DNA of 64,000 nucleotides. Source: Nemertoderma westbladi (taxonomy: Eukaryota; Animalia; Xenacoelomorpha). The position numbers were made by a program, and so were the translations under genes. Under the pieces are notes generated by a model. That model had not been told where the DNA came from, searched no databases, and saw nothing but the letters and a program-made list of their open reading frames with translations. Of the stretch, positions 4,438 to 64,000 are shown piece after piece; positions within the stretch are counted from its first letter, which is position 1, and each line of letters begins with the position of its first letter. The DNA is taken from contig JAUCBJ010003249.1 of assembly GCA_032718475.1 (NCBI GenBank), positions 7,988 to 71,987 on the forward strand, given 5' to 3'.

Positions 4438-4586
4438 AGAGTTCAGATGGACTTCAGATGAACTTTCTGCTGCTCCCCCGAGCCGGTAGGCCTAAGAGTT
4501 CAGATGGACTTTCTGCTGCTCCCCCGAGCCGGTAGGCCTAAGAGTTCAGATGGACTTTCTGCTGCTCCCCCGAGCCGGTAGGCCTA
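4438..4586. repeat. 46-bp tandem triplication overlapping the DTWD1 C-terminus and stop codon
   Basis: CAGATGGACTTTCTGCTGCTCCCCCGAGCCGGTAGGCCTA recurs at 4501 and 4547, with a further diverged copy at about 4440-4500. Confidence 0.9.
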
Positions 4587-5317
4587 CAATTAATAAGTTT
4601 CCACATATAAGAATAAAAGAACAACATATCGTCAAACTGCCCTTCATAAGGCACCGACGCGAATTTATTGTGTAATTCGACTAGAGTCCAATAAATAGCT
4701 TCAATAGTTGCTAGGCATGTAGGTGGTTTCTTCTTCTGTGGTCGCCAGTAGGTAGTGTTATGGTTTGCCAAAGACACGCGAGTAATTCCTTGTAAATTCG
4801 AACTTCGTGATAATTGGTTTAAGGTTTGCCACGTACAGTCAAGGACAACAACATGTTTTGGTTGAAAAGGCAAATCTGAAATTGAAACTGCTTCGTTTCC
4901 AGGAAGCAACAATATACAATCCTTCTTTTCATCAGAGGTAAAATTAGGGAAATTAGGATATCTGTAAAACTCGACATCGTCTGGCGCTAACAATTTGGCA
5001 TGGATTGATGTGCTCTTTCCAGGTCGTTCTTGGCCATGTTTTACGATGCTAAGCTGTACGGGCATTTGTAGTTTAGGGATATTATCGGAATTCAGCGCTG
5101 AGCTGAGACATAAACAATCGTAACAAAACCACTTCCGCGATTTAAAGCATTGCGGGCAAACAGACCTCCCTGAAACATTTCGTAAAACATCGTGGTTAGA
5201 TATACTGAAACAGGAAAAGGGGTTCGGCGGACCCGGAGGTGCAGGAAGTACCGGTATCTTTACGGATTCAACAACAGCGCCATCCACTTCCACTCGCCGC
5301 TTCTTAACTTTGTCCAT
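4538..5317 (-). CDS. DTWD1: tRNA-uridine aminocarboxypropyltransferase 1 (DTW domain), single-exon CDS (about 259 aa from ATG at 5317)
   Basis: N-terminal RSVCPQCFKSRKWFCYDC, KHxxERxGKSTSIHAKLLAPDDV, VLDCTW (DTW motif), YWRPQ and LATIEAIY. Confidence 0.93.
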   Translation of the reverse strand: MDKVKKRRVEVDGAVVESVKIPVLPAPPGPPNPFSCFSISNHDVLRNVSGRSVCPQCFKSRKWFCYDCLCLSSALNSDNIPKLQMPVQLSIVKHGQERPGKSTSIHAKLLAPDDVEFYRYPNFPNFTSDEKKDCILLLPGNEAVSISDLPFQPKHVVVLDCTWQTLNQLSRSSNLQGITRVSLANHNTTYWRPQKKKPPTCLATIEAIYWTLVELHNKFASVPYEGQFDDMLFFYSYMWKLINCRPTGSGEQQKVHLNS

Positions 5318-5376
5318 ATTCCTGTATTCAGATAGGCCTACAGGCCTACCGTAGTCAGGTAGTTGTAGTAAGTACA

Positions 5377-10615: not shown

Positions 10616-10626
10616 ACTCCCTTAAT

Positions 10627-15169: not shown

Positions 15170-15554
15170 GTAGGGTTTGGAGTAGGGTAGGGATGTTTTG
15201 CACTGGGTTTGGAGTAGGGTAGGAATGTTTTGCACTGGGTTTGGAGTAGGGTAGGAATGTTTTGCACTGGGTTTGGAGTAGGGTAGGAATGTTTTGCACT
15301 GGGTTTGGAGTAGGGTAGGAATGTTTTGCACTGGGTTTGGAGTAGGGTAGGGATGTTTTGCACTGGGTTTGGAGTAGGGTAGGAATGTTTTGCACTGGGT
15401 TTGGAGTAGTGTAGGAATGTTTTGCACTGGGTTTGGAGTAGGGTAGGGATGTTTTGCACTGGGTTTGGAGTAGGGTAGGGATGTTTTGCACTGGGTTTGG
15501 AGTAGGGTAGGGATGTTTTGCACTGGGTTTGGAGTAGGGTAGGAATGTTTTGCA
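15170..15554. repeat. 32-bp G-rich minisatellite (GGGTTTGGAGTAGGGTAGGAATGTTTTGCACT), about 12 copies
   Basis: Directly visible tandem array. Confidence 0.95.
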
Positions 15555-15674
15555 CCGGATATAACTTCTTGATATCCGACCGGATCGGATATCCGGAAGA
15601 TTTTGCACGATATCCTGCCATCCTTTTAAATGAGAGAAAACTTTGTGTTTTATTTTGTTTTGTACAGGTAGGTA

Positions 15675-15995
15675 ACGGCTACGTAATGACTACGTTATGC
15701 TTATGTAAAGTCTATGTAATGGATATGTAATGACAAATGTAATGGCTATATAATGACTATCTAATGATTATGTAATGACTATGTAATGGCTATGTAATGA
15801 CTACATAATGAATATGTAATGACTATGTAATGACTATGTAATGGCTATGTAATTACTATGTAATGACTACGTAATCACCACGTAATGGCTATGTAATAAT
15901 TATCTAATGTATATGTAATGACTATGTAATGGCTATGTAATGACTATGTAATGACTATGTAATGACTATTTAATGACTATGTAATGGCTATGTAA
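15675..15995. repeat. 11-bp degenerate minisatellite (ATGACTATGTA)
   Basis: Directly visible tandem array with atgact/atggct variants. Confidence 0.9.
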
Positions 15996-17503: not shown

Positions 17504-17689
17504 ATGCCGGACCAGCGTAAAGAGTTCGTTGTCAGCGCTGCGTCCCATTTCCTTGCGGTCGGCATCAACGAACAGCCTATGAAAGAGCTCTATGACAGCA
17601 CTGAGCTGAACAACTTCCTGGACGACGGTAACTGCGTTGTCCTCGCAGTAAAGTTGTCTTCAGCGAAACGATTGCAGATATTTAATCAG
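17504..17689 (+). CDS. DYNC2H1: Cytoplasmic dynein-2 heavy chain, coding exon 1
   Basis: MPDQRKEFVVSAASHF...LNNFLDDGNCVVL; donor CAG|GTTAGT, phase 0. Confidence 0.9.
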
Positions 17690-17875
17690 GTTAGTCAAAC
17701 ACTCTTTAACGTCAGTTATTGATTACAAATACCCGTCAGAATGCAGTCGCTGGCAATTTCTCTATTTTTCTCTAAGAAAACTTTCTCAGAAATGTTACAA
17801 TAATTTGAATTTAAAGCATTAGTTTATTTTGATAACTAGAATGGTTTATGCAAAGGATGAGTAGTTAGTTAGTGT

Positions 17876-17889
17876 GTTTCCGTGGTAAC
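17876..17889. promoter_or_regulatory. RFX X-box motif in intron 1 of DYNC2H1
   Basis: GTTTCCGTGGTAAC fits the GTTNCC-NN-GGNAAC X-box consensus, and RFX factors control intraflagellar-transport genes. Weaker matches at 16771, 17008 and 17214. Confidence 0.55.
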
Positions 17890-18114
17890 TGCACTGAAGG
17901 CATATGTTTGTTGGACGATTGAATTTTCAAACTCTTTCTGTATTGATCTACTGCAGTACTGAGCTATCTACTGTATCTATGTAGAAACTAGGCAGGCAGC
18001 TGGGGGAAACTTGTTTAAACGCCACTGGTAAATGTTACTGTATTCTAGAACAGCTATTATTTTAGAAGCCTTTAAGAACTACAGTGGGTATATGAGCGAT
18101 TATCTTAATTTTAG

Positions 18115-18335
18115 GTTGAACATCTAGACGCCAACGAAGGAATTATTATATTCTATAAACACACTCCGGATGTGATATCCCCAGACAATATGCACAGTAA
18201 GGTGCTAGTTACAACCATCACAGAGTCACCACTGTTAACTCTATACCACGCTATACAGAAGATTTACGCTCCAGCACTTCTGCGAGACACTGCTTGGAGT
18301 AAAAATCTTGATCCCAAACTCCAGCACTATATAAG
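18115..18335 (+). CDS. DYNC2H1: DYNC2H1 coding exon 2
   Basis: TTTTAG| VEHLD...ESPLLTLYHAIQKIYAPALLRDTAWSKNLDPKLQ |GTATT; frame continuous with exons 1 and 3. Confidence 0.92.
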
Positions 18336-18479
18336 GTATTTAGAATTATTATGTAAAACCGTAAAACCTAAACACGCTGAAACTTAGCCCAAACCAGGCT
18401 ATCATCCTCCACTGGTCGATAAATGCGAACCAAGGTAACTTGGGAAACGGAGTGGAAGTGTTTTAATGTTGTAGATCAC

Positions 18480-19730
18480 TAGTGTTGAGAACTGTAACTG
18501 TAATTATACTGTAACTGCAACTGTAACTGAATGGTTTTGATGATTTTTTTGATACTGTAACTATAACTGTAACTGTAATTGCGAACTTTGAATACTGTAA
18601 CTGTAACTGAAACTGTAATTACGTATTTGGAATACTGTAACTGAAACTGAAATTAACAAAATCCGATTCAGTTCTCAATCACACAATTAACATGAATAAG
18701 CATTTAAAACAGTATTGTAATAAAGTATAGAGTATAGTTTAATAAATGAATAACAGTGGTTACCATAGGTATCATTTTTAAAACATTGTTATAAAAAAAA
18801 AAACAATCTCGTTTTTTCCACTTCTGAACAAAACCATAATATTACACAATATAAAATCAAAGACCCATTGCCCACTTAGCTCAAATGTGATTTATTTGGA
18901 GAGTCAAGTAGTGAACGAAGATCTAGCATATAGTCTATGTTCATCGGACTCAACTATTAGACTATTATCAGACCTTATCACCACTTTTGTTAATTAATGT
19001 TTTTACCGGTACTATTAATATCATAATCACACTAGAGGCACACTGGAAATTAAATTTTGATCAAGTTTACCATTATAAATTACAAAATTAAACTTAAAAG
19101 TGAAAGGAGCAGCTTATCGAGGTGGGTCTAACGAACCAAAACAATAAAAATATGATTACTAAAACAAATTACGAATTAAGGAAAATGAGCAGGATTCAGA
19201 AGCATGGCTTTATAACCAAAACAATAAATGATAACAATAAGTGTACAAGCACTGAAACAAGATGTACAGTAAAATGTGGGTGCCTTTAGTGTGATCTTGT
19301 GACGTGCCACTTTCATTACATACTATCAGTATATTAGTTACAAAATATTACCATAGCGTGGGTCCAACTTTCCTACAACAACTACCTATTAGCTCTAGAA
19401 AGAGGACGTTTCGTAATGAACATTATTATTAGCGTATATAACAGTAATATATTAAAGTGCCTCATTTTTAGTTTCAGATGACTGCTTACTACATGAGATC
19501 ATATATATTGAATCTATAACTGAAACTGAAACTGAAATGCTCAATTTTGTAATACTGAAACTGTAACTGTAACTGAAATGTTACACTTTGTAATACTGAA
19601 ACTGTAACTGTAACTGAAATGCAAAACTTTGAATACTGAAACTGTAACTGTAACTGAAATGCAAAACTTTGAATACTGAAACTGTAACTGTAACTGAAAT
19701 TAGTCAAAATTGATTCAGTTCTCAACACTA
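18480..19730. mobile_element. Non-autonomous hAT-like transposon in DYNC2H1 intron 2
   Basis: Perfect 15-bp TIRs TAGTGTTGAGAACTG / CAGTTCTCAACACTA, perfect 8-bp TSD TAGATCAC (18472-18479, 19731-19738), subterminal AACTGT/AACTGA arrays. Confidence 0.92.
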
Positions 19731-19929
19731 TAGATCACCCATGGTGGTGTAGAGAACATGTAGGCCTATTCTATTCCCTGGCTTAATAAGCTTGAAAGTT
19801 TCTCATATTCATAATTTAATATTTGTTTTAATTATATTTTTTTTATTTTACATATTGAATTGTGTGATGTAGGTTTATTATTAGACTTGTAGGCTGCGAT
19901 CCTGTCACTAATGTTTATGTTTATTTTAG

Positions 19930-20072
19930 TGAGTTGGAGAAGGGATTGGGAGGATTGTCTCGTCGAACGGGTTCCTCGGGTAAACGTTTAGTTTCCGAAG
20001 ATGAGGACGATGTCTCTAACATTGTCTCCGCTGTGGATGAGTTTCAGTTCTGGGCCGACATGGCGAGTTCAG
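19930..20072 (+). CDS. DYNC2H1: DYNC2H1 coding exon 3 (not in ORF track)
   Basis: TTTTAG| (S)ELEKGLGGLSRR...DEFQFWADMASS |GTAAAC. Confidence 0.92.
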
Positions 20073-20254
20073 GTAAACGTATTAAATAAAGATAATTATA
20101 TTGATTGGTAAAACATAAATATTATATATATATTATTAATATAACAGAAAAAAAGGTGCATAATCACAAATAGCTCTCAAGGTACCCCATCATCTCTATT
20201 TGTGCATATCATCATCAATGGGTGACAATAATCTTTAATAATAAGTCAATAAAT

Positions 20255-20320
20255 GAGTTGTGTCGAACTGATGACCTCCGGGTTGGAAGTCTGACGCTCT
20301 AACTTTTCAGCTAGCGGCTC
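20255..20320 (-). mobile_element. Degenerate tRNA-derived SINE head or tRNA pseudogene
   Basis: Minus strand GAGCCGCTAGCTGAAAAGTTAGAGCGTCAGACTTCCAACCCGGAGGTCATCAGTTCGAC shows A-box and B-box remnants; acceptor stem not intact. Confidence 0.5.
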
Positions 20321-20469
20321 GGGTAAAAGACTACCTGATACCTTGTATGTCCGCAATTTACCTCCTCATGGCCTCCCATATGTCAATCCCACAATCTGCT
20401 GCTACTGTGCTCAACCCTACAGTACTTGGTCGTTTTTAAATTAAGTTTATGGCTGTTTAAGCTTTTTCT

Positions 20470-21560
20470 TGCACAAATATTATTGGTAATTGTGATTGAT
20501 TATGATTACGTTCTACGCATGTCCTTAGACCATCTTAAAAAAGATGGGATATTGGTCTCCGGACAATTCGTACCCGGACAAATCGTACCCGGACAATTCG
20601 TAACAGACAATTCGTACCCGGACAATTCGTACCCGGACAATTCGTAACAGACAATTCGTACCCGGACAATTCGTACCCGGACAATTCGTACCCTAAATTT
20701 TTTTTGACGGGTACGAATTGTCCGGATACTGACTAGTTAAAGTACGCTATATATTGACTAGCTAGTTTTTTGTTAATTTTTTTATTCCAGTACGTATTAT
20801 ATTGATAATGGACATTATTTGTGCCCGAAATATATTTATAATATCTTATAATATCTGAACATATAATTAATAATTGAATCGTTAATTTTTTTATAAATGT
20901 TACAGAACACGTGTTAGTTATCAATTTTGATTGATTTGATTTTGATTCAATATTTTTGTTCTAGAACACATTTTTTTCTAGAACATTTTTTGGAAAAAAT
21001 ACCATCCTACTGTTAGAAGGTCAAATATTTGTTCTAGAAAATAAAACCTACATTATCTGTATCCTGACAATTCGTAGCTCAAATAAATTTGGTGCACACT
21101 ACCTCCTATTTTCTACACATTTTTTAATACCGATTTTTTTACATTTCACCTAGAGCAAAATTTCATCAGCATTCCAAATCTAAAGTCTTTTTGTTTATAT
21201 CTTGTTCCGTTATCGAGATATCGGCCTATAAGACTACTCTAGTCTACAATTCGTCATAAAAAACCCATCATAAAAAAATTTCGGGTACGAATTGTCCGGT
21301 ACGAATTCTCATTCGTACCGGTCGATGGTTCGATGGTAACACCCCCTACTGGCACAAGAAGTAGATGAAATCCAGCAAAGTTCCTTACTGATCAAGACTT
21401 TGCTGATGACTTAGGGGTACTGTCAGAATCACTAGAGGGAGCCCAAAGGCTCCTCTGCTCATTGGAGCAGGTTGCTTCTAGTGTTGGTATTTTTGTAAAT
21501 TCCAAGAAGAGCAAAATCATGACAGTCAACCTCGACTGCCCTCCAGAACTGTCTGATCGT
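20470..21560 (+). mobile_element. RTE-like LINE RT fragment split by a MITE
   Basis: VIVIDY..VLRMSLD...GI before 20553 and FLTDQDFADDLGVLSESLEGAQRLL...GIFVNSKKSKIMTVN after 21350. Same family as 10627-11290 (shared KI.TVN...P...SDR). Confidence 0.75.
20554..21320. mobile_element. MITE/foldback-like element with 15-bp subterminal repeats (GGACAATTCGTACCC)
   Basis: About nine direct copies at 20558-20693 and inverted copies at about 20708-20726 and 21281-21320. Confidence 0.7.
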
Positions 21561-21700
21561 AGTAAGGGCATACGCTCAGGGAGTTGTGGCTTCGCAATTT
21601 TGTCGACTAGCCAGCATAGCATTCTTATATATATGTAATATATATAATGCAGCTGCAATAGTAAGTAGAAAGTTTATAGGTACAAATGTTTTTTTTGCAG

Positions 21701-21925
21701 GGCAGAAACTAAGTTTGAAGGAGCGGGCCCAATACTTCCAGGAATTGTTCGGGTCATTGACCTCGGACTTCCAGTCTCTGGATAGCCACTCTTCGCAGGA
21801 GGTCGTTGACCTTATAGAGACAGTGGAGGGAGTCCTGGATGAACTCTGGAAGCAGGAAGAACACACTCCCCGATACCCGGAGAAACGGATGGCGCATCTG
21901 TTTCAGATGATAGGAGGAGATTTAG
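21701..21925 (+). CDS. DYNC2H1: DYNC2H1 coding exon 4
   Basis: TTTTGCAG| GQKLSLKERAQYFQELF...YPEKRMAHLFQMIGGDL |GTTGGT. Confidence 0.93.
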
Positions 21926-22069
21926 GTTGGTTGTAGTTCGATTAATCATCGCTAAACAATAAACGTTGTTGGCAATCCTGTGACATAAATCTCATTTATC
22001 GCTCTACTGTCCCAAAGTCATATAGATAGTTCTTCAACTTCTGAATTATATACAAATTATATCGACTTA

Positions 22070-25926: not shown

Positions 25927-25934
25927 GTTAGTCG

Positions 25935-47300: not shown

Positions 47301-50300
47301 TGACAAAGTACAGGTGGGTTGTGTATGGAGTATCTCTCTCTATGGTGACAAAGTACAGTGGGTTGTATATGGAGTATCTCTATGGTGACAAAGTACAGGT
47401 GGGTTGTATATGGAGTATCTCTATGGTGACAAAGTACAGGTGGGTTGTATATGGAGTATCTCTATGGTGACAAAGTACAGGTGGGTTGTGTATGGAGTAT
47501 CTCTCTCTATGGTGACAAAGTACAGTGGGTTGTATATGGAGTATCTCTATGGTGACAAAGTACAGGTGGGTTGTATATGGAGTATCTCTATGGTGACAAA
47601 GTACAGGTGGGTTGTGTATGGAGTATCTCTCTCTATGGTGACAAAGTACAGGTGGGTTGTATATGGAGTATCTCTATGGTGACAAAGTACAGTGGGTTGT
47701 ATATGGAGTATCTCTATGGTGACAAAGTACAGGTGGGTTGTGTATGGAGTATCTCTCTCTATGGTGACAAAGTACAGGTGGGTTGTATATGGAGTATCTC
47801 TATGGTGACAAAGTACAGGTGGGTTGTGTATGGAGTATCTCTCTCTATGGTGACAAAGTACAGGTGGGTTGTATATGGAGTATCTCTATGGTGACAAAGT
47901 ACAGGTGGGTTGTATATGGAGTATCTCTATGGTGACAAAGTACAGGTGGGTTGTGTATGGAGTATCTCTCTCTATGGTGACAAAGTACAGGTGGGTTGTA
48001 TATGGAGTATCTCTATGGTGACAAAGTACAGGTGGGTTGTATATGGAGTATCTCTATGGTGACAAAGTACAGGTGGGTTGTGTATGGAGTATCTCTCTCT
48101 ATGGTGACAAAGTACAGGTGGGTTGTATATGGAGTATCTCTATGGTGACAAAGTACAGGTGGGTTGTATATGGAGTATCTCTATGGTGACAAAGTACAGG
48201 TGGGTTGTATATGGAGTATCTCTATGGTGACAAAGTACAGGTGGGTTGTGTATGGAGTATCTCTCTCTATGGTGACAAAGTACAGTGGGTTGTATATGGA
48301 GTATCTCTATGGTGACAAAGTACAGGTGGGTTGTATATGGAGTATCTCTATGGTGACAAAGTACAGGTGGGTTGTATATGGAGTATCTCTATGGTGACAA
48401 AGTACAGGTGGGTTGTGTATGGAGTATCTCTCTCTATGGTGACAAAGTACAGTGGGTTGTATATGGAGTATCTCTATGGTGACAAAGTACAGGTGGGTTG
48501 TATATGGAGTATCTCTATGGTGACAAAGTACAGGTGGGTTGTGTATGGAGTATCTCTCTCTATGGTGACAAAGTACAGGTGGGTTGTATATGGAGTATCT
48601 CTATGGTGACAAAGTACAGGTGGGTTGTGTATGGAGTATCTCTCTCTATGGTGACAAAGTACAGTGGGTTGTATATGGAGTATCTCTATGGTGACAAAGT
48701 ACAGGTGGGTTGTATATGGAGTATCTCTATGGTGACAAAGTACAGGTGGGTTGTGTATGGAGTATCTCTCTCTATGGTGACAAAGTACAGTGGGTTGTAT
48801 ATGGAGTATCTCTATGGTGACAAAGTACAGGTGGGTTGTATATGGAGTATCTCTATGGTGACAAAGTACAGGTGGGTTGTGTATGGAGTATCTCTCTATG
48901 GTGACAAAGTACAGTGGGTTGTATATGGAGTATCTCTATGGTGACAAAGTACAGGTGGGTTGTATATGGAGTATCTCTATGGTGACAAAGTACAGGTGGG
49001 TTGTGTATGGAGTATCTCTCTCTATGGTGACAAAGTACAGGTGGGTTGTATATGGAGTATCTCTATGGTGACAAAGTACAGGTGGGTTGTATATGGAGTA
49101 TCTCTATGGTGACAAAGTACAGGTGGGTTGTGTATGGAGTACCTCTCTATGGTGACAAAGTACAGGTGGGTTGTATATGGAGTATCTCTATGGTGACAAA
49201 GTACAGGTGGGTTGTGTATGGAGTATCTCTCTCTATGGTGACAAAGTACAGTGGGTTGTATATGGAGTATCTCTATGGTGACAAAGTACAGGTGGGTTGT
49301 ATATGGAGTATCTCTATGGTGACAAAGTACAGGTGGGTTGTATATGGAGTATCTCTATGGTGACAAAGTACAGGTGGGTTGTGTATGGAGTATCTCTCTC
49401 TATGGTGACAAAGTACAGGTGGGTTGTATATGGAGTATCTCTATGGTGACAAAGTACAGGTGGGTTGTGTATGGAGTACTCTCTCTATGGTGACAAAGTA
49501 CAGGTGGGTTGTATATGGAGTATCTCTATGGTGACAAAGTACAGGTGGGTTGTGTATGGAGTATCTCTCTATGGTGACAAAGTACAGTGGGTTGTATATG
49601 GAGTATCTCTATGGTGACAAAGTACAGGTGGGTTGTATATGGAGTATCTCTATGGTGACAAAGTACAGGTGGGTTGTATATGGAGTATCTCCTCTATGGT
49701 GACAAAGTACAGTGGGTTGTATATGGAGTATCTCTATGGTGACAAAGTACAGGTGGGTTGTGTATGGAGTATCTCTCTATGGTGACAAAGTACAGGTGGG
49801 TTGTATATGGAGTATCTCTATGGTGACAAAGTACAGGTGGGTTGTGTATGGAGTATCTCTCTCTATGGTGACAAAGTACAGGTGGGTTGTATATGGAGTA
49901 TCTCTATGGTGACAAAGTACAGGTGGGTTGTATATGGAGTACTCTCTCTATGGTGACAAAGTACAGGTGGGTTGTATATGGAGTATCTCTATGGTGACAA
50001 AGTACAGGTGGGTTGTATATGGAGTATCTCTATGGTGACAAAGTACAGGTGGGTTGTATATGGAGTATCTCTATGGTGACAAAGTACAGGTGGGTTGTAT
50101 ATGGAGTATCTCTATGGTGACAAAGTACAGGTGGGTTGTATATGGAGTACTCTCTCTATGGTGACAAAGTACAGGTGGGTTGTATATGGAGTATCTCTAT
50201 GGTGACAAAGTACAGGTGGGTTGTATATGGAGTATCTCTATGGTGACAAAGTACAGGTGGGTTGTATATGGAGTATCTCTATGGTGACAAAGTACAGGTG

Positions 50301-53300
50301 GGTTGTGTATGGAGTATCTCTCTCTATGGTGACAAAGTACAGTGGGTTGTATATGGAGTATCTCTATGGTGACAAAGTACAGGTGGGTTGTGTATGGAGT
50401 ACTCTCTCTATGGTGACAAAGTACAGGTGGGTTGTATATGGAGTATCTCTATGGTGACAAAGTACAGGTGGGTTGTGTATGGAGTATCTCTCTCTATGGT
50501 GACAAAGTACAGGTGGGTTGTATATGGAGTATCTCTATGGTGACAAAGTACAGGTGGGTTGTGTATGGAGTATCTCTCTCTATGGTGACAAAGTACAGGT
50601 GGGTTGTATATGGAGTATCTCTATGGTGACAAAGTACAGGTGGGTTGTATATGGAGTATCTCTATGGTGACAAAGTACAGGTGGGTTGTATATGGAGTAT
50701 CTCTATGGTGACAAAGTACAGGTGGGTTGTGTATGGAGTATCTCTCTCTATGGTGACAAAGTACAGTGGGTTGTATATGGAGTATCTCTATGGTGACAAA
50801 GTACAGGTGGGTTGTATATGGAGTATCTCTATGGTGACAAAGTACAGGTGGGTTGTATATGGAGTATCTCTATGGTGACAAAGTACAGGTGGGTTGTATA
50901 TGGAGTATCTCTATGGTGACAAAGTACAGTGGGTTGTATATGGAGTATCTCTATGGTGACAAAGTACAGGTGGGTTGTATATGGAGTATCTCTATGGTGA
51001 CAAAGTACAGGTGGGTTGTATATGGAGTATCTCTATGGTGACAAAGTACAGGTGGGTTGTATATGGAGTATCTCTATGGTGATAAAGTACAGTGGGTTGT
51101 ATATGGAGTATCTCTCTCTATGGTGACAAAGTACAGGTGGGTTGTGTATGGAGTATCTCTATGGTGACAAAGTACAGGTGGGTTGTATATGGAGTATCTC
51201 TCTATGGTGACAAAGTACAGGTGGGTTGTGTATGGAGTATCTCTATGGTGATAAAGTACAGTGGGTTGTATATGGAGTATCTCTATGGTGACAAAGTACA
51301 GTGGGTTGTATATGGAGTATCTCTATGGTGACAAAGTACAGGTGGGTTGTATATGGAGTATCTCTCTCTATGGTGACAAAGTACAGGTGGGTTGTGTATG
51401 GAGTATCTCTATGGTGACAAAGTACAGGTGGGTTGTATATGGAGTATCTCTATGGTGACAAAGTACAGGTGGGTTGTGTATGGAGTATCTCTCTCTATGG
51501 TGACAAAGTACAGGTGGGTTGTGTATGGAGTATCTCTATGGTGACAAAGTACAGGTGGGTTGTATATGGAGTATCTCTATGGTGACAAAGTACAGGTGGG
51601 TTGTGTATGGAGTATCTCTATGGTGATAAAGTACAGGTGGGTTGTGTATGGAGTATCTCTATGGTGACAAAGTACAGGTGGGTTGTATATGGAGTATCTC
51701 TCTCTATGGTGACAAAGTACAGGTGGGTTGTGTATGGAGTATCTCTATGGTGATAAAGTACAGTGGGTTGTATATGGAGTATCTCTATGGTGACAAAGTA
51801 CAGGTGGGTTGTATATGGAGTATCTCTCTCTATGGTGACAAAGTACAGGTGGGTTGTGTATGGAGTATCTCTATGGTGACAAAGTACAGGTGGGTTGTAT
51901 ATGGAGTATCTCTATGGTGACAAAGTACAGGTGGGTTGTGTATGGAGTATCTCTATGGTGATAAAGTACAGGTGGGTTGTGTATGGAGTATCTCTATGGT
52001 GACAAAGTACAGGTGGGTTGTATATGGAGTATCTCCTCTATGGTGACAAAGTACAGGTGGGTTGTGTATGGAGTATCTCTATGGTGATAAAGTACAGGTG
52101 GGTTGTGTATGGAGTATCTCTATGGTGACAAAGTACAGTGGGTTGTATATGGAGTATCTCTATGGTGACAAAGTACAGGTGGGTTGTGTATGGAGTATCT
52201 CTATGGTGATAAAGTACAGTGGGTTGTATATGGAGTATCTCTATGGTGACAAAGTACAGGTGGGTTGTGTATGGAGTATCTCTATGGTGACAAAGTACAG
52301 GTGGGTTGTATATGGAGTATCTCTATGGTGACAAAGTACAGGTGGGTTGTGTATGGAGTATCTCTCTCTATGGTGACAAAGTACAGGTGGGTTGTGTATG
52401 GAGTATCTCTATGGTGACAAAGTACAGGTGGGTTGTATATGGAGTATCTCTATGGTGACAAAGTACAGGTGGGTTGTGTATGGAGTATCTCTATGGTGAT
52501 AAAGTACAGGTGGGTTGTGTATGGAGTATCTCTATGGTGACAAAGTACAGGTGGGTTGTATATGGAGTATCTCTCTCTATGGTGACAAAGTACAGTGGGT
52601 TGTATATGGAGTATCTCTATGGTGATAAAGTACAGGTGGGTTGTATATGGAGTATCTCTATGGTGACAAAGTACAGGTGGGTTGTGTATGGAGTATCTCT
52701 ATGGTGATAAAGTACAGTGGGTTGTATATGGAGTATCTCTATGGTGATAAAGTACAGGTGGGTTGTATATGGAGTATCTCTATGGTGACAAAGTACAGGT
52801 GGGTTGTATATGGAGTATCTCCATGGTGACAAAGTACAGGTGGGTTGTATATGGAGTATCTCCATGGTGACAAAGTACAGGTGGGTTGTATATGGAGTAT
52901 CTCTATGGTGATAAAGTACAGTGGGTTGTATATGGAGTATCTCTATGGTGATAAAGTACAGGTGGGTTGTATATGGAGTATCTCTATGGTGACAAAGTAC
53001 AGGTGGGTTGTATATGGAGTATCTCCATGGTGACAAAGTACAGGTGGGTTGTGTATGGAGTATCTCTATGGTGATAAAGTACAGTGGGTTGTATATGGAG
53101 TATCTCTATGGTGACAAAGTACAGGTGGGTTGTATATGGAGTATCTCTATGGTGACAAAGTACAGGTGGGTTGTATATGGAGTATCTCCATGGTGACAAA
53201 GTACAGGTGGGTTGTATATGGAGTATCTCTATGGTGACAAAGTACAGTGGGTTGTATATGGAGTATCTCTATGGTGACAAAGTACAGGTGGGTTGTATAT

Positions 53301-56300
53301 GGAGTATCTCCATGGTGACAAAGTACAGGTGGGTTGTATATGGAGTATCTCTATGGTGACAAAGTACAGGTGGGTTGTATATGGAGTATCTCTCTCTATG
53401 GTGACAAAGTACAGGTGGGTTGTATATGGAGTATCTCCATGGTGACAAAGTACAGGTGGGTTGTATATGGAGTATCTCCATGGTGACAAAGTACAGGTGG
53501 GTTGTATATGGAGTATCTCTATGGTGACAAAGTACAGTGGGTTGTATATGGAGTATCTCCATGGTGACAAAGTACAGGTGGGTTGTATATGGAGTATCTC
53601 CATGGTGACAAAGTACAGGTGGGTTGTATATGGAGTATCTCCATGGTGACAAAGTACAGGTGGGTTGTATATGGAGTATCTCTATGGTGACAAAGTACAG
53701 TGGGTTGTATATGGAGTATCTCTATGGTGACAAAGTACAGGTGGGTTGTATATGGAGTATCTCCATGGTGACAAAGTACAGGTGGGTTGTATATGGAGTA
53801 TCTCTATGGTGACAAAGTACAGGTGGGTTGTATATGGAGTATCTCTCTCTATGGTGACAAAGTACAGGTGGGTTGTATATGGAGTATCTCCATGGTGACA
53901 AAGTACAGGTGGGTTGTATATGGAGTATCTCCATGGTGACAAAGTACAGGTGGGTTGTATATGGAGTATCTCTATGGTGACAAAGTACAGGTGGGTTGTA
54001 TATGGAGTATCTCTCTCTATGGTGACAAAGTACAGGTGGGTTGTATATGGAGTATCTCTATGGTGATAAAGTACAGTGGGTTGTATATGGAGTATCTCTA
54101 TGGTGACAAAGTACAGGTGGGTTGTATATGGAGTATCTCCATGGTGACAAAGTACAGGTGGGTTGTATATGGAGTATCTCTATGGTGACAAAGTACAGTG
54201 GGTTGTATATGGAGTATCTCTATGGTGACAAAGTACAGTGGGTTGTGTATGGAGTATCTCTATGGTGATAAAGTACAGTGGGTTGTGTATGGAGTATCTC
54301 TATGGTGACAAAGTACAGTGGGTTGTGTATGGAGTATCTCTATGGTGACAAAGTACAGTGGGTTGTGTATGGAGTATCTCTATGGTGACAAAGTACAGTG
54401 GGTTGTATATGGAGTATCTCTATGGTGACAAAGTACAGTGGGTTGTGTATGGAGTATCTCTATGGTGACAAAGTACAGTGGGTTGTGTATGGAGTATCTC
54501 TATGGTGACAAAGTACAGTGGGTTGTATATGGAGTATCTCTATGGTGACAAAGTACAGTGGGTTGTGTATGGAGTATCTCTATGGTGACAAAGTACAGTG
54601 GGTTGTGTATGGAGTATCTCTATGGTGACAAAGTACAGTGGGTTGTGTATGGAGTATCTCTATGGTGACAAAGTACAGTGGGTTGTGTATGGAGTATCTC
54701 TATGGTGACAAAGTACAGTGGGTTGTGTATGGAGTATCTCTATGGTGACAAAGTACAGTGGGTTGTGTATGGAGTATCTCTATGGTGACAAAGTACAGTG
54801 GGTTGTGTATGGAGTATCTCTATGGTGACAAAGTACAGTGGGTTGTGTATGGAGTATCTCTATGGTGACAAAGTACAGGTGGGTTGTGTATGGAGTATCT
54901 CTATGGTGACAAAGTACAGGTGGGTTGTATATGGAGTATCTCCATGGTGACAAAGTACAGGTGGGTTGTATATGGAGTATCTCTATGGTGACAAAGTACA
55001 GTGGGTTGTATATGGAGTATCTCTATGGTGACAAAGTACAGTGGGTTGTGTATGGAGTATCTCTATGGTGACAAAGTACAGTGGGTTGTGTATGGAGTAT
55101 CTCTATGGTGACAAAGTACAGTGGGTTGTGTATGGAGTATCTCTATGGTGACAAAGTACAGTGGGTTGTGTATGGAGTATCTCTATGGTGACAAAGTACA
55201 GTGGGTTGTGTATGGAGTATCTCTATGGTGACAAAGTACAGTGGGTTGTGTATGGAGTATCTCTATGGTGACAAAGTACAGTGGGTTGTGTATGGAGTAT
55301 CTCTATGGTGACAAAGTACAGTGGGTTGTGTATGGAGTATCTCTATGGTGACAAAGTACAGTGGGTTGTGTATGGAGTATCTCTATGGTGACAAAGTACA
55401 GTGGGTTGTGTATGGAGTATCTCTATGGTGACAAAGTACAGTGGGTTGTGTATGGAGTATCTCTATGGTGACAAAGTACAGGTGGGTTGTGTATGGAGTA
55501 TCTCTATGGTGACAAAGTACAGGTGGGTTGTATATGGAGTATCTCCATGGTGACAAAGTACAGGTGGGTTGTATATGGAGTATCTCTATGGTGACAAAGT
55601 ACAGTGGGTTGTGTATGGAGTATCTCTATGGTGACAAAGTACAGTGGGTTGTGTATGGAGTATCTCTATGGTGACAAAGTACAGTGGGTTGTGTATGGAG
55701 TATCTCTATGGTGACAAAGTACAGTGGGTTGTGTATGGAGTATCTCTATGGTGACAAAGTACAGTGGGTTGTGTATGGAGTATCTCTATGGTGACAAAGT
55801 ACAGGTGGGTTGTGTATGGAGTATCTCTATGGTGACAAAGTACAGGTGGGTTGTATATGGAGTATCTCCATGGTGACAAAGTACAGGTGGGTTGTATATG
55901 GAGTATCTCTATGGTGACAAAGTACAGTGGGTTGTGTATGGAGTATCTCTATGGTGACAAAGTACAGTGGGTTGTGTATGGAGTATCTCTATGGTGACAA
56001 AGTACAGTGGGTTGTGTATGGAGTATCTCTATGGTGACAAAGTACAGTGGGTTGTGTATGGAGTATCTCTATGGTGACAAAGTACAGGTGGGTTGTGTAT
56101 GGAGTATCTCTATGGTGATAAAGTACAGTGGGTTGTATATGGAGTATCTCTATGGTGACAAAGTACAGGTGGGTTGTATATGGAGTATCTCTATGGTGAC
56201 AAAGTACAGGTGGGTTGTATATGGAGTATCTCTATGGTGACAAAGTACAGTGGGTTGTATATGGAGTATCTCTATGGTGACAAAGTACAGGTGGGTTGTG

Positions 56301-59300
56301 TATGGAGTATCTCTATGGTGACAAAGTACAGTGGGTTGTGTATGGAGTATCTCTATGGTGATAAAGTACAGTGGGTTGTATATGGAGTATCTCTATGGTG
56401 ACAAAGTACAGGTGGGTTGTATATGGAGTATCTCCATGGTGACAAAGTACAGGTGGGTTGTATATGGAGTATCTCCATGGTGACAAAGTACAGGTGGGTT
56501 GTATATGGAGTATCTCCATGGTGACAAAGTACAGGTGGGTTGTATATGGAGTATCTCTATGGTGACAAAGTACAGTGGGTTGTATATGGAGTATCTCTAT
56601 GGTGACAAAGTACAGGTGGGTTGTATATGGAGTATCTCTATGGTGACAAAGTACAGGTGGGTTGTATATGGAGTATCTCTCTCTATGGTGACAAAGTACA
56701 GGTGGGTTGTATATGGAGTATCTCTATGGTGATAAAGTACAGGTGGGTTGTATATGGAGTATCTCTCTCTATGGTGACAAAGTACAGGTGGGTTGTATAT
56801 GGAGTATCTCCATGGTGACAAAGTACAGGTGGGTTGTATATGGAGTATCTCTATGGTGACAAAGTACAGTGGGTTGTATATGGAGTATCTCTATGGTGAC
56901 AAAGTACAGGTGGGTTGTATATGGAGTATCTCTCTATGGTGACAAAGTACAGGTGGGTTGTATATGGAGTATCTCTATGGTGATAAAGTACAGTGGGTTG
57001 TATATGGAGTATCTCTATGGTGACAAAGTACAGGTGGGTTGTATATGGAGTATCTCCATGGTGACAAAGTACAGGTGGGTTGTATATGGAGTATCTCCAT
57101 GGTGACAAAGTACAGGTGGGTTGTATATGGAGTATCTCCATGGTGACAAAGTACAGGTGGGTTGTATATGGAGTATCTCTATGGTGACAAAGTACAGGTG
57201 GGTTGTATATGGAGTATCTCTATGGTGACAAAGTACAGGTGGGTTGTATATGGAGTATCTCTATGGTGACAAAGTACAGGTGGGTTGTATATGGAGTATC
57301 TCTCATGGTGACAAAGTACAGGTGGGTTGTATATGGAGTATCTCTATGGTGATAAAGTACAGGTGGGTTGTATATGGAGTATCTCTCTCTATGGTGACAA
57401 AGTACAGGTGGGTTGTATATGGAGTATCTCCATGGTGACAAAGTACAGGTGGGTTGTATATGGAGTATCTCTATGGTGACAAAGTACAGTGGGTTGTATA
57501 TGGAGTATCTCTATGGTGACAAAGTACAGGTGGGTTGTATATGGAGTATCTCTCTATGGTGACAAAGTACAGGTGGGTTGTATATGGAGTATCTCTATGG
57601 TGATAAAGTACAGTGGGTTGTATATGGAGTATCTCTATGGTGACAAAGTACAGGTGGGTTGTATATGGAGTATCTCCATGGTGACAAAGTACAGGTGGGT
57701 TGTATATGGAGTATCTCTATGGTGATAAAGTACAGTGGGTTGTATATGGAGTATCTCTATGGTGACAAAGTACAGGTGGGTTGTATATGGAGTATCTCCA
57801 TGGTGACAAAGTACAGGTGGGTTGTATATGGAGTATCTCTATGGTGACAAAGTACAGTGGGTTGTATATGGAGTATCTCTATGGTGACAAAGTACAGTGG
57901 GTTGTATATGGAGTATCTCTATGGTGATAAAGTACAGTGGGTTGTATATGGAGTATCTCTATGGTGACAAAGTACAGGTGGGTTGTATATGGAGTATCTC
58001 TATGGTGACAAAGTACAGGTGGGTTGTATATGGAGTATCTCTATGGTGACAAAGTACAGTGGGTTGTATATGGAGTATCTCTATGGTGACAAAGTACAGT
58101 GGGTTGTATATGGAGTATCTCTATGGTGACAAAGTACAGTGGGTTGTATATGGAGTATCTCTATGGTGACAAAGTACAGTGGGTTGTATATGGAGTATCT
58201 CTATGGTGACAAAGTACAGGTGGGTTGTATATGGAGTATCTCTATGGTGACAAAGTACAGGTGGGTTGTATATGGAGTATCTCTATGGTGACAAAGTACA
58301 GTGGGTTGTATATGGAGTATCTCTATGGTGACAAAGTACAGGTGGGTTGTATATGGAGTATCTCTATGGTGACAAAGTACAGTGGGTTGTATATGGAGTA
58401 TCTCTATGGTGACAAAGTACAGGTGGGTTGTATATGGAGTATCTCTATGGTGATAAAGTACAGTGGGTTGTATATGGAGTATCTCTATGGTGACAAAGTA
58501 CAGGTGGGTTGTATATGGAGTATCTCTATGGTGACAAAGTACAGGTGGGTTGTATATGGAGTATCTCTATGGTGACAAAGTACAGTGGGTTGTATATGGA
58601 GTATCTCTATGGTGATAAAGTACAGGTGGGTTGTATATGGAGTATCTCTATGGTGACAAAGTACAGTGGGTTGTATATGGAGTATCTCTATGGTGACAAA
58701 GTACAGGTGGGTTGTATATGGAGTATCTCTATGGTGACAAAGTACAGGTGGGTTGTATATGGAGTATCTCTATGGTGATAAAGTACAGTGGGTTGTATAT
58801 GGAGTATCTCTATGGTGACAAAGTACAGGTGGGTTGTATATGGAGTATCTCTATGGTGACAAAGTACAGGTGGGTTGTATATGGAGTATCTCTATGGTGA
58901 TAAAGTACAGTGGGTTGTATATGGAGTATCTCTATGGTGACAAAGTACAGGTGGGTTGTATATGGAGTATCTCTATGGTGACAAAGTACAGGTGGGTTGT
59001 ATATGGAGTATCTCTATGGTGACAAAGTACAGGTGGGTTGTATATGGAGTATCTCTATGGTGATAAAGTACAGTGGGTTGTATATGGAGTATCTCTATGG
59101 TGACAAAGTACAGGTGGGTTGTATATGGAGTATCTCTATGGTGACAAAGTACAGGTGGGTTGTATATGGAGTATCTCTATGGTGATAAAGTACAGTGGGT
59201 TGTATATGGAGTATCTCTATGGTGACAAAGTACAGGTGGGTTGTATATGGAGTATCTCTATGGTGACAAAGTACAGGTGGGTTGTATATGGAGTATCTCT

Positions 59301-62300
59301 ATGGTGACAAAGTACAGGTGGGTTGTATATGGAGTATCTCTATGGTGATAAAGTACAGTGGGTTGTATATGGAGTATCTCTATGGTGACAAAGTACAGGT
59401 GGGTTGTATATGGAGTATCTCTATGGTGACAAAGTACAGGTGGGTTGTATATGGAGTATCTCTATGGTGATAAAGTACAGTGGGTTGTATATGGAGTATC
59501 TCTATGGTGACAAAGTACAGGTGGGTTGTATATGGAGTATCTCTATGGTGACAAAGTACAGGTGGGTTGTATATGGAGTATCTCTATGGTGATAAAGTAC
59601 AGTGGGTTGTATATGGAGTATCTCTATGGTGACAAAGTACAGGTGGGTTGTATATGGAGTATCTCTATGGTGACAAAGTACAGGTGGGTTGTATATGGAG
59701 TATCTCTATGGTGACAAAGTACAGGTGGGTTGTATATGGAGTATCTCTATGGTGATAAAGTACAGTGGGTTGTATATGGAGTATCTCTATGGTGACAAAG
59801 TACAGGTGGGTTGTATATGGAGTATCTCTATGGTGACAAAGTACAGGTGGGTTGTATATGGAGTATCTCTATGGTGACAAAGTACAGGTGGGTTGTATAT
59901 GGAGTATCTCTATGGTGATAAAGTACAGGTGGGTTGTATATGGAGTATCTCTATGGTGACAAAGTACAGTGGGTTGTATATGGAGTATCTCTATGGTGAC
60001 AAAGTACAGGTGGGTTGTATATGGAGTATCTCTATGGTGACAAAGTACAGGTGGGTTGTATATGGAGTATCTCTATGGTGACAAAGTACAGGTGGGTTGT
60101 ATATGGAGTATCTCTATGGTGACAAAGTACAGTGGGTTGTATATGGAGTATCTCTATGGTGACAAAGTACAGGTGGGTTGTATATGGAGTATCTCTCTAT
60201 GGTGACAAAGTACAGTGGGTTGTATATGGAGTACTCTCTCTATGGTGATAAAGTACAGTGGGTTGTATATGGAGTATCTCTATGGTGACAAAGTACAGGT
60301 GGGTTGTATATGGAGTATCTCCATGGTGACAAAGTACAGGTGGGTTGTATATGGAGTATCTCTATGGTGATAAAGTACAGTGGGTTGTATATGGAGTATC
60401 TCTCTCTATGGTGATAAAGTACAGTGGGTTGTATATGGAGTATCTCTATGGTGACAAAGTACAGGTGGGTTGTATATGGAGTATCTCCATGGTGACAAAG
60501 TACAGGTGGGTTGTATATGGAGTATCTCCATGGTGACAAAGTACAGGTGGGTTGTATATGGAGTATCTCTATGGTGATAAAGTACAGTGGGTTGTATATG
60601 GAGTATCTCTATGGTGATAAAGTACAGTGGGTTGTATATGGAGTATCTCTATGGTGACAAAGTACAGGTGGGTTGTATATGGAGTATCTCCATGGTGACA
60701 AAGTACAGGTGGGTTGTATATGGAGTATCTCTATGGTGATAAAGTACAGTGGGTTGTATATGGAGTATCTCTATGGTGACAAAGTACAGGTGGGTTGTAT
60801 ATGGAGTATCTCCATGGTGACAAAGTACAGGTGGGTTGTATATGGAGTATCTCTATGGTGACAAAGTACAGGTGGGTTGTATATGGAGTATCTCTATGGT
60901 GATAAAGTACAGTGGGTTGTATATGGAGTATCTCTATGGTGACAAAGTACAGGTGGGTTGTATATGGAGTATCTCCATGGTGACAAAGTACAGGTGGGTT
61001 GTATATGGAGTATCTCTATGGTGATAAAGTACAGTGGGTTGTATATGGAGTATCTCTATGGTGACAAAGTACAGGTGGGTTGTGTATGGAGTATCTCTCT
61101 CTATGGTGACAAAGTACAGGTGGGTTGTATATGGAGTATCTCTATGGTGACAAAGTACAGTGGGTTGTATATGGAGTATCTCTATGGTGACAAAGTACAG
61201 TGGGTTGTGTATGGAGTATCTCTATGGTGACAAAGTACAGGTGGGTTGTATATGGAGTATCTCTATGGTGACAAAGTACAGTGGGTTGTATATGGAGTAT
61301 CTCTATGGTGACAAAGTACAGGTGGGTTGTATATGGAGTATCTCTATGGTGACAAAGTACAGGTGGGTTGTATATGGAGTATCTCTATGGTGACAAAGTA
61401 CAGTGGGTTGTGTATGGAGTATCTCTATGGTGACAAAGTACAGGTGGGTTGTATATGGAGTATCTCTATGGTGACAAAGTACAGTGGGTTGTATATGGAG
61501 TATCTCTATGGTGACAAAGTACAGTGGGTTGTGTATGGAGTATCTCTCTCTATGGTGACAAAGTACAGGTGGGTTGTATATGGAGTATCTCTATGGTGAC
61601 AAAGTACAGTGGGTTGTATATGGAGTATCTCTATGGTGACAAAGTACAGTGGGTTGTGTATGGAGTATCTCTCTCTATGGTGACAAAGTACAGGTGGGTT
61701 GTATATGGAGTATCTCTATGGTGACAAAGTACAGTGGGTTGTATATGGAGTATCTCTATGGTGACAAAGTACAGGTGGGTTGTATATGGAGTATCTCTAT
61801 GGTGACAAAGTACAGGTGGGTTGTATATGGAGTATCTCTATGGTGACAAAGTACAGTGGGTTGTATATGGAGTATCTCTATGGTGACAAAGTACAGGTGG
61901 GTTGTATATGGAGTATCTCTATGGTGACAAAGTACAGTGGGTTGTATATGGAGTATCTCTATGGTGATAAAGTACAGTGGGTTGTATATGGAGTATCTCT
62001 ATGGTGACAAAGTACAGGTGGGTTGTATATGGAGTATCTCTCTCTATGGTGACAAAGTACAGGTGGGTTGTATATGGAGTATCTCTATGGTGACAAAGTA
62101 CAGGTGGGTTGTGTATGGAGTATCTCTATGGTGATAAAGTACAGTGGGTTGTATATGGAGTATCTCTCTCTATGGTGACAAAGTACAGGTGGGTTGTATA
62201 TGGAGTATCTCTATGGTGATAAAGTACAGTGGGTTGTATATGGAGTATCTCTATGGTGATAAAGTACAGGTGGGTTGTGTATGGAGTATCTCTATGGTGA

Positions 62301-64000
62301 TAAAGTACAGTGGGTTGTATATGGAGTATCTCTATGGTGACAAAGTACAGGTGGGTTGTATATGGAGTATCTCTATGGTGACAAAGTACAGGTGGGTTGT
62401 ATATGGAGTATCTCTATGGTGACAAAGTACAGGTGGGTTGTATATGGAGTATCTCTATGGTGACAAAGTACAGTGGGTTGTATATGGAGTATCTCTATGG
62501 TGACAAAGTACAGGTGGGTTGTATATGGAGTATCTCTATGGTGACAAAGTACAGTGGGTTGTATATGGAGTATCTCTCTCTATGGTGACAAAGTACAGGT
62601 GGGTTGTATATGGAGTATCTCTATGGTGACAAAGTACAGTGGGTTGTATATGGAGTATCTCTCTCTATGGTGACAAAGTACAGGTGGGTTGTATATGGAG
62701 TATCTCTATGGTGACAAAGTACAGTGGGTTGTATATGGAGTATCTCTCTCTATGGTGACAAAGTACAGGTGGGTTGTATATGGAGTATCTCTATGGTGAT
62801 AAAGTACAGTGGGTTGTATATGGAGTATCTCTATGGTGACAAAGTACAGTGGGTTGTATATGGAGTATCTCTATGGTGACAAAGTACAGTGGGTTGTATA
62901 TGGAGTATCTCTATGGTGACAAAGTACAGTGGGTTGTATATGGAGTATCTCTCTCTATGGTGACAAAGTACAGGTGGGTTGTATATGGAGTATCTCTATG
63001 GTGACAAAGTACAGGTGGGTTGTATATGGAGTATCTCTATGGTGACAAAGTACAGTGGGTTGTATATGGAGTATCTCTCTCTATGGTGACAAAGTACAGG
63101 TGGGTTGTATATGGAGTATCTCTATGGTGACAAAGTACAGGTGGGTTGTATATGGAGTATCTCTATGGTGACAAAGTACAGGTGGGTTGTGTATGGAGTA
63201 TCTCTATGGTGACAAAGTACAGGTGGGTTGTGTATGGAGTATCTCTATGGTGATAAAGTACAGTGGGTTGTATATGGAGTATCTCTATGGTGATAAAGTA
63301 CAGGTGGGTTGTATATGGAGTATCTCTATGGTGACAAAGTACAGGTGGGTTGTATATGGAGTATCTCCATGGTGATAAAGTACAGGTGGGTTGTGTATGG
63401 AGTATCTCTATGGTGACAAATTACAGGTGGGTTGTGTATGGAGTATCTCTATGGTGATAAAGTACAGGTGGGTTGTATATGGAGTATCTCCATGGTGATA
63501 AAGTACAGGTGGGTTGTGTATGGAGTATCTCTATGGTGACAAATTACAGGTGGGTTGTGTATGGAGTATCTCTATGGTGATAAAGTACAGGTGGGTTGTG
63601 TATGGAGTATCTCTATGGTGACAAAGTACAGGTGGGTTGTATATGGAGTATCTCTATGGTGATAAAGTACAGGTGGGTTGTATATGGAGTATCTCTATGG
63701 TGATAAAGTACAGGTGGGTTGTGTATGGAGTATCTCTATGGTGATAAATTACAGGTGGGTTGTGTATGGAGTATCTCTATGGTGATAAAGTACAGTGGGT
63801 TGTATATGGAGTATCTCTATGGTGATAAAGTACAGGTGGGTTGTGTATGGAGTATCTCTATGGTGATAAATTACAGGTGGGTTGTGTATGGAGTATCTCT
63901 ATGGTGATAAAGTACAGGTGGGTTGTATATGGAGTATCTCTATGGTGACAAAGTACAGGTGGGTTGTATATGGAGTATCTCTATGGTGACAAAGTACAGG
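32345..64000 (+). repeat. 41-bp satellite (TGGTGACAAAGTACAG|GTGGGTTGTATATGGAGTATCTCTA), about 770 copies, intron 9 of DYNC2H1, incomplete at window end
   Basis: Directly visible. 40-bp (one G lost), 43-bp and 45-bp (extra CT) length variants, plus gac/gat, tat/tgt and ctat/ccat substitutions. The first copy overlaps exon 9. Confidence 0.99.

What the first reader, a model, noticed from the sequence alone, without database searches (positions are those of the whole stretch)
4438..64000. Recurrent rule: tandem arrays nucleate at gene-structure boundaries (two splice donors, one stop codon, possibly more)
Seen: the 41-mer spans a donor, the 28-mer starts at a donor, and the 46-mer spans the DTWD1 stop. 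The 32-mer starts right after GAG|GTAGGG (15169/15170) and the 11-mer right after CAG|GTAGGT (15667/15668), although no exon is proven for those two. The large arrays are all G/T-rich on the + (DYNC2H1 sense) strand. Inference: a transcription- or splicing-coupled mutational process (for example R-loops or pausing at 5' splice sites) may seed and expand local repeats. Alternatively, selection only tolerates expansions that extend downstream of a donor or stop. Either way this could be a lineage-wide route to intron gigantism.
Basis: inference. Interest (0 to 1): 0.7.

Follow-up and report, generated by a model that had tools for sequence, protein, structure and literature searches.

The report
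Giant minisatellites copying dynein splice donors
In an animal dynein gene, two introns are filled by very long tandem repeats that begin at the exon's splice signal (one copies it about 550 times); they are likely large examples of a repeat type known from human and lancelet genes, and the proposed general rule that repeats start at gene boundaries remains unproven.

Summary
Three anchors are real. The 41-mer (767 units, over 31.6 kb) begins 16 nt inside DYNC2H1 exon 9 and holds 552 copies of its donor. The 28-mer begins in register at the exon 6 donor. The three-copy 46-mer overlaps the DTWD1 stop, which the unit junction re-creates. The two other 'donors' have no shown exon: 15169 is background-level, and 15667 fits an acceptor equally well. 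'All large arrays G/T-rich' holds for 3 of 5 arrays over 300 bp. In the window, 3 of 19 arrays sit on a donor or stop, against 0.3-0.6 expected (nominal P 0.004-0.02, criteria chosen after seeing the data). In 28 DYNC2H1 loci from other eukaryotes, 4 of 21 arrays were donor-side against 1.6-2.1 expected (P 0.06-0.13), so the rule was not reproduced, though that test is weak. Best reading: local tandem duplication or slippage, tolerated because the first donor is likely still used. This is the known human F7/CBS VNTR and lancelet 'mirage' type; this scan noted it before in at least eight other animal windows. What stands out is the scale. R-loop or pausing seeding has no direct support here, and the genome-wide test could not be run.

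The parts
17504..32360 (+). DYNC2H1 coding exons 1-9 (17504-17689, 18115-18335, 19930-20072, 21701-21925, 24717-25034, 25690-25926, 31444-31676, 31849-32079, 32178-32360); the gene continues beyond the window
   Evidence: tblastn map; open 659-aa frame, 44-46% identity to P0033 and P0003; PDB DYNC2H1 hits; Pfam DHC_N1 just under its cut-off
32345..64000 (+). 41-bp minisatellite: 16 nt of exon 9 end plus 25 nt of intron start; 767 unit starts, 552 intact donors, 207 one-G-deleted variants; makes intron 9 at least 31.6 kb
   Evidence: same intron position in 4 of 38 related loci; unit present in DNA contigs of runs X1, X2, X3
32358..32366 (+). Exon 9 splice donor CAG|GTGGGT (phase 0, after GGDKVQ; relatives continue with V/ITWD)
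25927..31077 (+). 28-bp GTTT/GTTA-type minisatellite, 175 units with +4 and +8 slippage variants; fills 5151 of 5517 bp of intron 6; first diverged unit starts at the donor
25924..25932 (+). Exon 6 splice donor TGA|GTTAGT (phase 1; the weakest of the nine, 5 of 9 consensus matches)
   Evidence: open frame and homology
4438..4586 (-). 46-bp three-copy duplication of the last 15 codons of DTWD1; the copy 1/copy 2 junction forms the TAG stop (4540-4538)
4538..5317 (-). DTWD1-like intronless ORF (DTW domain)
   Evidence: Pfam PF03942, E 2e-28
15170..15555 (+). 32-bp array, 12 copies, G/T-rich; preceded by GAG|GTAGGG, a background-level motif with no exon shown
15668..15995 (+). 11-bp array, about 29 copies; starts at an AG|GT that is both a strong donor-like and a strong acceptor-like site; role unknown
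2823..4001 (+).

Best explanation
The 41-mer and 28-mer begin at DYNC2H1 splice donors and likely arose as two independent local tandem duplication or slippage events that then grew by ordinary minisatellite turnover and are tolerated because the first donor is probably still the one used. SHOWN: the 41-mer unit holds this exon's own last 16 nt, and neither unit occurs elsewhere in the window; the extra copies fall in the intron; any later donor would shift the frame or include a stop; the DTWD1 duplication leaves the protein end unchanged. INFERRED: first-donor use (by analogy with F7); growth by slippage and unequal exchange; a GTTT/GTTA microsatellite seeded at GTTAGT as the origin of the 28-mer. 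On this reading the clustering at boundaries is a few harmless survivors plus after-the-fact selection, not a demonstrated transcription-coupled rule.
For: Exon-derived unit: 9-10 of 16 nt match relatives' codons, while the 25 post-donor nt match at 6-7 of 25. No copy of either unit in the non-array part of the window. First in-frame stop 69 nt after donor 9, pseudo-donors at +41 and +82 out of frame, and an immediate stop after donor 6. A single-copy DTWD1 reconstruction ends in the same KVHLNS plus TGA. Slippage-type length variants in both arrays and patchy variant blocks along the 41-mer. Published cases: F7, CBS, 6-16, lamin B2, PDGF (PMC1557585) and lancelet mirages (PMC3087553; PMC3902484). 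16 of 19 window arrays are not at a shown donor or stop. Outgroup loci: 4 of 21 donor-side against 1.6-2.1 expected; periods of 10 bp or more, 2 of 13 against 1.3-1.6.
Against: The window excess survives a null that already removes wholly exonic placements (3 of 19, P 0.004-0.023; the two largest arrays are both at donors, joint P about 0.002). Two of only four + strand 8/9 donor-like motifs in 17.8 kb of free non-coding DNA (4002, 15667) abut arrays over 300 bp. Both big arrays are far more G-skewed (0.98, 0.52) than the array-free introns (-0.03). The outgroup trend points the same way (P 0.056 at 10 nt), and short contigs under-sample long arrays. Which donor is used was not observed.
Confidence: 0.65

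Rival explanations
1. A real donor-proximal bias in this lineage: arrays are preferentially born or amplified at 5' splice sites because of transcription- or splicing-coupled lesions (R-loops, pausing), which produces giant introns.
For: 2 of 3 arrays of 1 kb or more start at donors (P 0.0005-0.0016); strong sense-strand G skew in both; the 11-mer and 18-mer abut rare 8/9 motifs; a GTTT run starts at a donor in L013 and a 25-mer carrying CAG|GTATGT occurs in L025.
Against: Two cases in one gene; criteria chosen post hoc; the 28-mer has no GGG run (the importance of G clusters for R-loops is recalled, not tested); outgroup test not significant and 3 of its 4 hits come from one locus; a LINE-internal 78-mer has an 8/9 motif 15 nt before it, which shows such adjacency arises by chance.
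Confidence: 0.15
2. A sequence-composition bias without transcription coupling: donor motifs such as GTTAGT are short 4-bp-periodic repeats that seed GTTT/GTTA slippage, so simple-sequence arrays start at donors somewhat more often than chance.
For: The 28-mer is built of TTGT/TAGT tetramers, holds 366 GTTAGT and has +4/+8 variants; two of the four outgroup donor-side hits are GTTT and TG runs.
Against: Does not explain the complex 41-mer or 46-mer; outgroup numbers are small.
Confidence: 0.15
3. The arrays created the introns (intron gain by tandem duplication of an AG|GT site), or they are assembly artefacts.
For: Most intron positions here differ from those common in the fetched loci; 4 of 38 loci have no intron at this site, three of them reading CAG GT across it.
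Against: The post-donor 25 nt do not resemble the next codons (6-7 of 25), and 4 of 38 loci have an intron at the same position. The unit and its main variants are in contigs of two studies, far deeper than the flanking contig in X2, a sample with 5 other letters in 892 bp. There are 42 unit types in patchy blocks.
Confidence: 0.05

Closest known systems
Human F7 intron 7 37-bp VNTR, with CBS intron 13, 6-16 intron 2, lamin B2 and PDGF intron 4 (PMC1557585; abstract, Introduction and Discussion read)
   Same: The first unit spans the exon-intron boundary, so the donor is repeated in the intron; similar unit length (37 against 41 bp).
   Different: 5-25 copies there, against 552 intact donors over at least 31.6 kb here; first-donor use was shown experimentally for F7 and is not observed here.
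Lancelet 'mirage' minisatellites in Adh3, globins, TnC and PGBD5 (PMC3087553 and PMC3902484; passages read)
   Same: [quoted passage not shown]
   Different: Mirages occur at both donors and acceptors and have few copies (3-6 in BflGb6); here the two arrays are donor-side and hundreds of copies long.
Drosophila kl-3/kl-5 satellite-filled giant introns (PMC6508621; abstract and outline read)
   Same: An intron enlarged by tandem repeats; the fly genes being dynein heavy chains is recalled, not read.
   Different: Megabases of simple satellite on a Y chromosome with a dedicated expression programme; here locally born 28/41-bp units of tens of kb, with no such programme tested.

Membership tests
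Boundary-spanning minisatellite (F7-type VNTR / mirage) | First unit spans a true exon-intron boundary | tested here: met
   41-mer = 16 nt exon + 25 nt intron at a homology-supported donor. The 28-mer starts at the donor and shares only the last exon base, so it is a borderline member.
Boundary-spanning minisatellite (F7-type VNTR / mirage) | Donor sequence repeated in the intron as pseudo-sites | tested here: met
   552 CAG|GTGGGT and 161 A|GTTAGT
Boundary-spanning minisatellite (F7-type VNTR / mirage) | Local origin rather than an inserted satellite | tested here: met
   The exon part of the 41-mer codes the conserved end of exon 9; no copy elsewhere in the window; the rest of the genome was not available.
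Boundary-spanning minisatellite (F7-type VNTR / mirage) | Splicing uses the most upstream donor(s) | not testable with these tools
   Only inferred from reading-frame constraints
Boundary-spanning minisatellite (F7-type VNTR / mirage) | Copy number varies between alleles | tested here: inconclusive
   Unit seen in contigs of X1-X3, but contig depth is not a copy number
Intron gain by tandem genomic duplication | Intron sequence is a duplicate of flanking coding sequence on both sides of an AG|GT | tested here: not met
   Post-donor 25 nt match the next codons of 4 intron-less relatives at 6-7 of 25; same intron position in 4 other loci
Transcription/R-loop-seeded repeat expansion (proposed rule) | Genome-wide excess of array starts at donors or stops | tested here: inconclusive
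   Window 3 of 19, nominal P 0.004-0.023, post hoc; outgroup 4 of 21, P 0.06-0.13; no genome held
Transcription/R-loop-seeded repeat expansion (proposed rule) | All large arrays G/T-rich on the sense strand | tested here: not met
   3 of 5 arrays over 300 bp are G/T-rich on +; the 46-mer is 0.48 on its sense strand; the 28-mer has no GGG

The most novel reading that the evidence does not exclude
In this animal lineage, which appears to have remodelled its intron positions, tandem arrays are born or run away specifically at the first bases of introns, with a G-rich sense strand, turning sub-kilobase introns into 5 to over 30 kb stretches of hundreds of perfect decoy donors: a splice-site-anchored route to giant introns and an extreme natural test of first-donor selection.
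Probability: 0.15. Interest if true: 0.65.

Novelty: new member of a known kind. Interest (0 to 1): 0.3.

Why it matters
As it stands, this is an unusually large example of a known repeat type: about 550 identical donors in a row against 5-25 in the published human cases, in a conserved ciliary gene. That makes it a good natural test of how the spliceosome picks the first donor. If a genome-wide donor bias were real, it would link splicing signals to where repeats are born and offer a mutational route to giant introns. That is cheap to test once the assembly and RNA are at hand.

Tried and rejected
Sequencing runs: no RNA holder listed among 6 runs; this says nothing about expression. Run X4 laid nothing on 31460-32430, which is no proof of absence. 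One X3 contig runs unchanged from intron 8 to 32374, 30 letters into the array, one short of the tool's bridging rule, so I do not count it as a bridge. The 41-mer pattern had 0 matches in metagenome contigs, so the far end of the array and its breakpoint remain unknown. No earlier notes for this genome or look-alike stretches. Rejected: intron gain by duplication; a hidden exon inside the 41-mer (all 766 spacings are 40-45 bp); 15169 as a donor (background level); the 18-mer as an intact coding repeat (26-, 44- and other off-period spacings, stop after 201 codons). In the outgroup test I dropped 8 redundant loci and L005 (telomere-like repeats) of 38, and one more lacked two coding blocks; L025's 25-mer was not counted because its exon is off the contig. 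Paper searches showed no genome-wide test of array starts against donors; the library lacks most subscription journals, and I judged those lists from titles and abstract starts. PMC10078293 (passages) deals with splicing effects of repeats, not where they arise. No supplements were read.
Full report
Setting. The window is animal DNA with four intronless ORFs (mucolipin, DTWD1, a CHHC zinc-finger GTSF1-like gene, XRCC3) and the 5' part of DYNC2H1. The name GTSF1 is my recall for the CHHC protein. A nine-exon model with GT-AG introns gives an open 659-aa frame, 44-46% identical to two vertebrate proteins. TRF gave 36 rows, which I merged into 19 arrays. I moved three starts by hand after reading the register: 46-mer to 4438, 11-mer to 15668, 28-mer to 25927 (TRF: 4453, 15679, 25969). 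The five largest arrays fill 60% of the window. No genome is held.

The 41-mer. It starts at 32345, 16 nt before the exon 9 donor, and runs off the window, so intron 9 is at least 31.6 kb. There are 767 unit starts, 42 unit types, 552 exact donors and 207 copies lacking one G. Variants lie in patchy blocks. The donor is supported by relatives, which continue with V/ITWD after this Q; of 38 fetched loci, 4 have an intron at the same place and 4 read straight through. The exon part of the unit matches those codons at 9-10 of 16, the post-donor part at 6-7 of 25, so the array copied an existing junction and did not create the intron. The unit and its main variants occur in DNA contigs of runs X1, X2 and X3 (two studies; X2 and X3 are one sample; X1 may be the source). 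In X2 the summed depth is 8,878-11,552 over the unit against 24.8 over the flanking contig, which differs from the window at 5 of 892 letters. Depth is not copy number, but an assembly artefact is unlikely.

The 28-mer. It fills 5151 of 5517 bp of intron 6. A diverged first unit starts at the donor GT and exact unit sequence starts 12 nt later; there are 175 units with 161 A|GTTAGT, and +4/+8 variants point to tetranucleotide slippage. Read-through past either true donor meets a stop (at once for intron 6, after 69 nt for intron 9), and the pseudo-donors at +41 and +82 are out of frame. A working gene must therefore use the first donor; this is inferred, not observed.

The 46-mer. It is three copies of the last 15 codons of DTWD1, beyond the DTW domain. 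The present TAG is formed by the junction of copies 1 and 2. Removing two units and an 11-bp internal duplicate gives the same KVHLNS end with TGA; removing only the two units gives KVHLKSI. The duplication is thus probably neutral for the protein.

The unproven sites. 15169 scores 6 of 9 against the MAG|GTRAGT consensus given in PMC1557585; such sites occur 19 times per kb, and one lies within 12 nt before a random position, in either orientation, about 22% of the time. It lies about 145 nt past a large inverted-repeat element. 15667 scores 8 of 9 and is the best + strand donor-like site among 15 between XRCC3 and the DYNC2H1 ATG, so it could be a 5' UTR donor. It also has the strongest acceptor tract in the comparison, and 5 of 8 true acceptors are followed by GT. 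Against, the 78-mer inside a LINE relic has an 8/9 site 15 nt before it, apparently by chance.

Is it more than chance? I collapsed each array to one unit (24,513 bp) and placed it at random anywhere not wholly inside coding sequence (38 variants run). Donor or stop: 3 of 19, expected 0.32-0.63, P 0.004-0.023. Donors only: 2 of 19, P 0.02-0.07. Inside DYNC2H1: 2 of 9, P 0.03-0.05. Arrays of 1 kb or more: 2 of 3, P 0.0005-0.0016. All boundary types: 3-5 of 19, P 0.007-0.024. These are nominally significant, but the window, the boundary classes and the size cut were chosen after seeing the data, and UTR introns are unknown. As an independent sample I used 28 of the 38 DYNC2H1 loci (156 gaps between coding blocks, edges approximate): 4 of 21 arrays donor-side against 1.6-2.1 expected (P 0.056-0.13), acceptor-side 2-3 against 1.6-2.1, and periods of 10 bp or more 2 of 13 against 1.3-1.6. 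Three of the four donor-side hits come from L013. These are other lineages and short contigs, so the test is weak in both directions.

Strand skew. G+T on + is 0.64, 0.82 and 0.76 for the 41-, 28- and 32-mers, 0.54 for the 11-mer and 0.43 for the 18-mer, against 0.50 in array-free introns. The skew of the two intronic arrays is real, but n is 2, and a unit copied from a donor inherits G and T. The 28-mer has no GGG run.

Mechanism. Most likely: a local duplication (41-mer, 46-mer) or slippage from a GTTA/GTTT seed (28-mer); survival because the extra copies land in the intron or 3' UTR and the first donor or a re-created stop keeps the protein intact; then unconstrained growth. Local origin and harmlessness to the frame are shown; first-donor use and the growth process are inferred.

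Known relatives. PMC1557585 (abstract, Introduction, Discussion) describes F7, CBS, 6-16, lamin B2 and PDGF minisatellites whose first unit spans a donor, and shows upstream-first donor choice for F7. PMC3087553 and PMC3902484 (passages) describe lancelet mirages at several loci, call their origin unclear and suggest they may be general in that lineage. PMC6508621 (abstract) covers satellite-filled giant introns. This scan's notes list eight similar animal cases; they are unchecked and chosen by eye, so they are not evidence of enrichment. One of them suggested the collapsed-array null; here, unlike there, short introns alone do not explain the positions.

Verdict. This is a new, very large member of a known kind. 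Interest 0.3; a true lineage-specific donor bias keeps about 15% probability.

Noticed in passing
window:17504-32360: DYNC2H1 intron positions (about aa 62, 136, 183, 258, 364, 443, 521, 598, 659) mostly differ from those common in the fetched loci (about 112, 163, 218, 255, 332, 415, 439, 488, 546, 613), and four neighbouring genes have intronless ORFs: a sign of strong intron loss and gain in this lineage.
   Followed up: partly
window:2750-4011: The 18-mer can be read from an ATG at 2807 as a GTDTHG repeat, open for 201 codons before off-period units break it; it ends at a donor-like CAA|GTAAGT. Probably non-coding, but a + strand transcript is not excluded.
   Followed up: partly
window:15645-15675: A site that is both a strong acceptor and a strong donor (TACAG|GTAGGT after a T-rich tract), resembling a recursive splice point; no transcript known.
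   Followed up: partly
window:12785-15025: A 2.2-kb element with long inverted arms enclosing broken ORFs (13256-14431) that look like a non-LTR retrotransposon end (family recalled; no Pfam hit; arms).
   Followed up: no
window:18479-18680, 19490-19730, 20545-21310: The 40-mer and 15-mer arrays look like internal repeats of small dispersed inverted-repeat elements, not locally born arrays.
   Followed up: partly
window:10627-11292: LINE relic on the minus strand with a perfect 78-bp tandem duplication.
   Followed up: partly
window:2040-2095: Several acceptor-like sites on the minus strand upstream of the mucolipin ATG suggest a 5' UTR intron.
   Followed up: no
L025:1-192: A 25-bp array with CAG|GTATGT in each unit at the contig start, upstream of DYNC2H1 coding blocks: possibly another donor-spanning minisatellite in the same gene of another organism; its exon is off the contig.
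   Followed up: partly
L013:6616-6676; L010:19345-19527: A GTTT run starting right at a likely donor, and a 97-bp duplicate over a likely acceptor, in other DYNC2H1 loci.
   Followed up: partly
window:31676: Run X2 has G>A at the last base of exon 7 (CAG|GT to CAA|GT), a variant at a donor.
   Followed up: no
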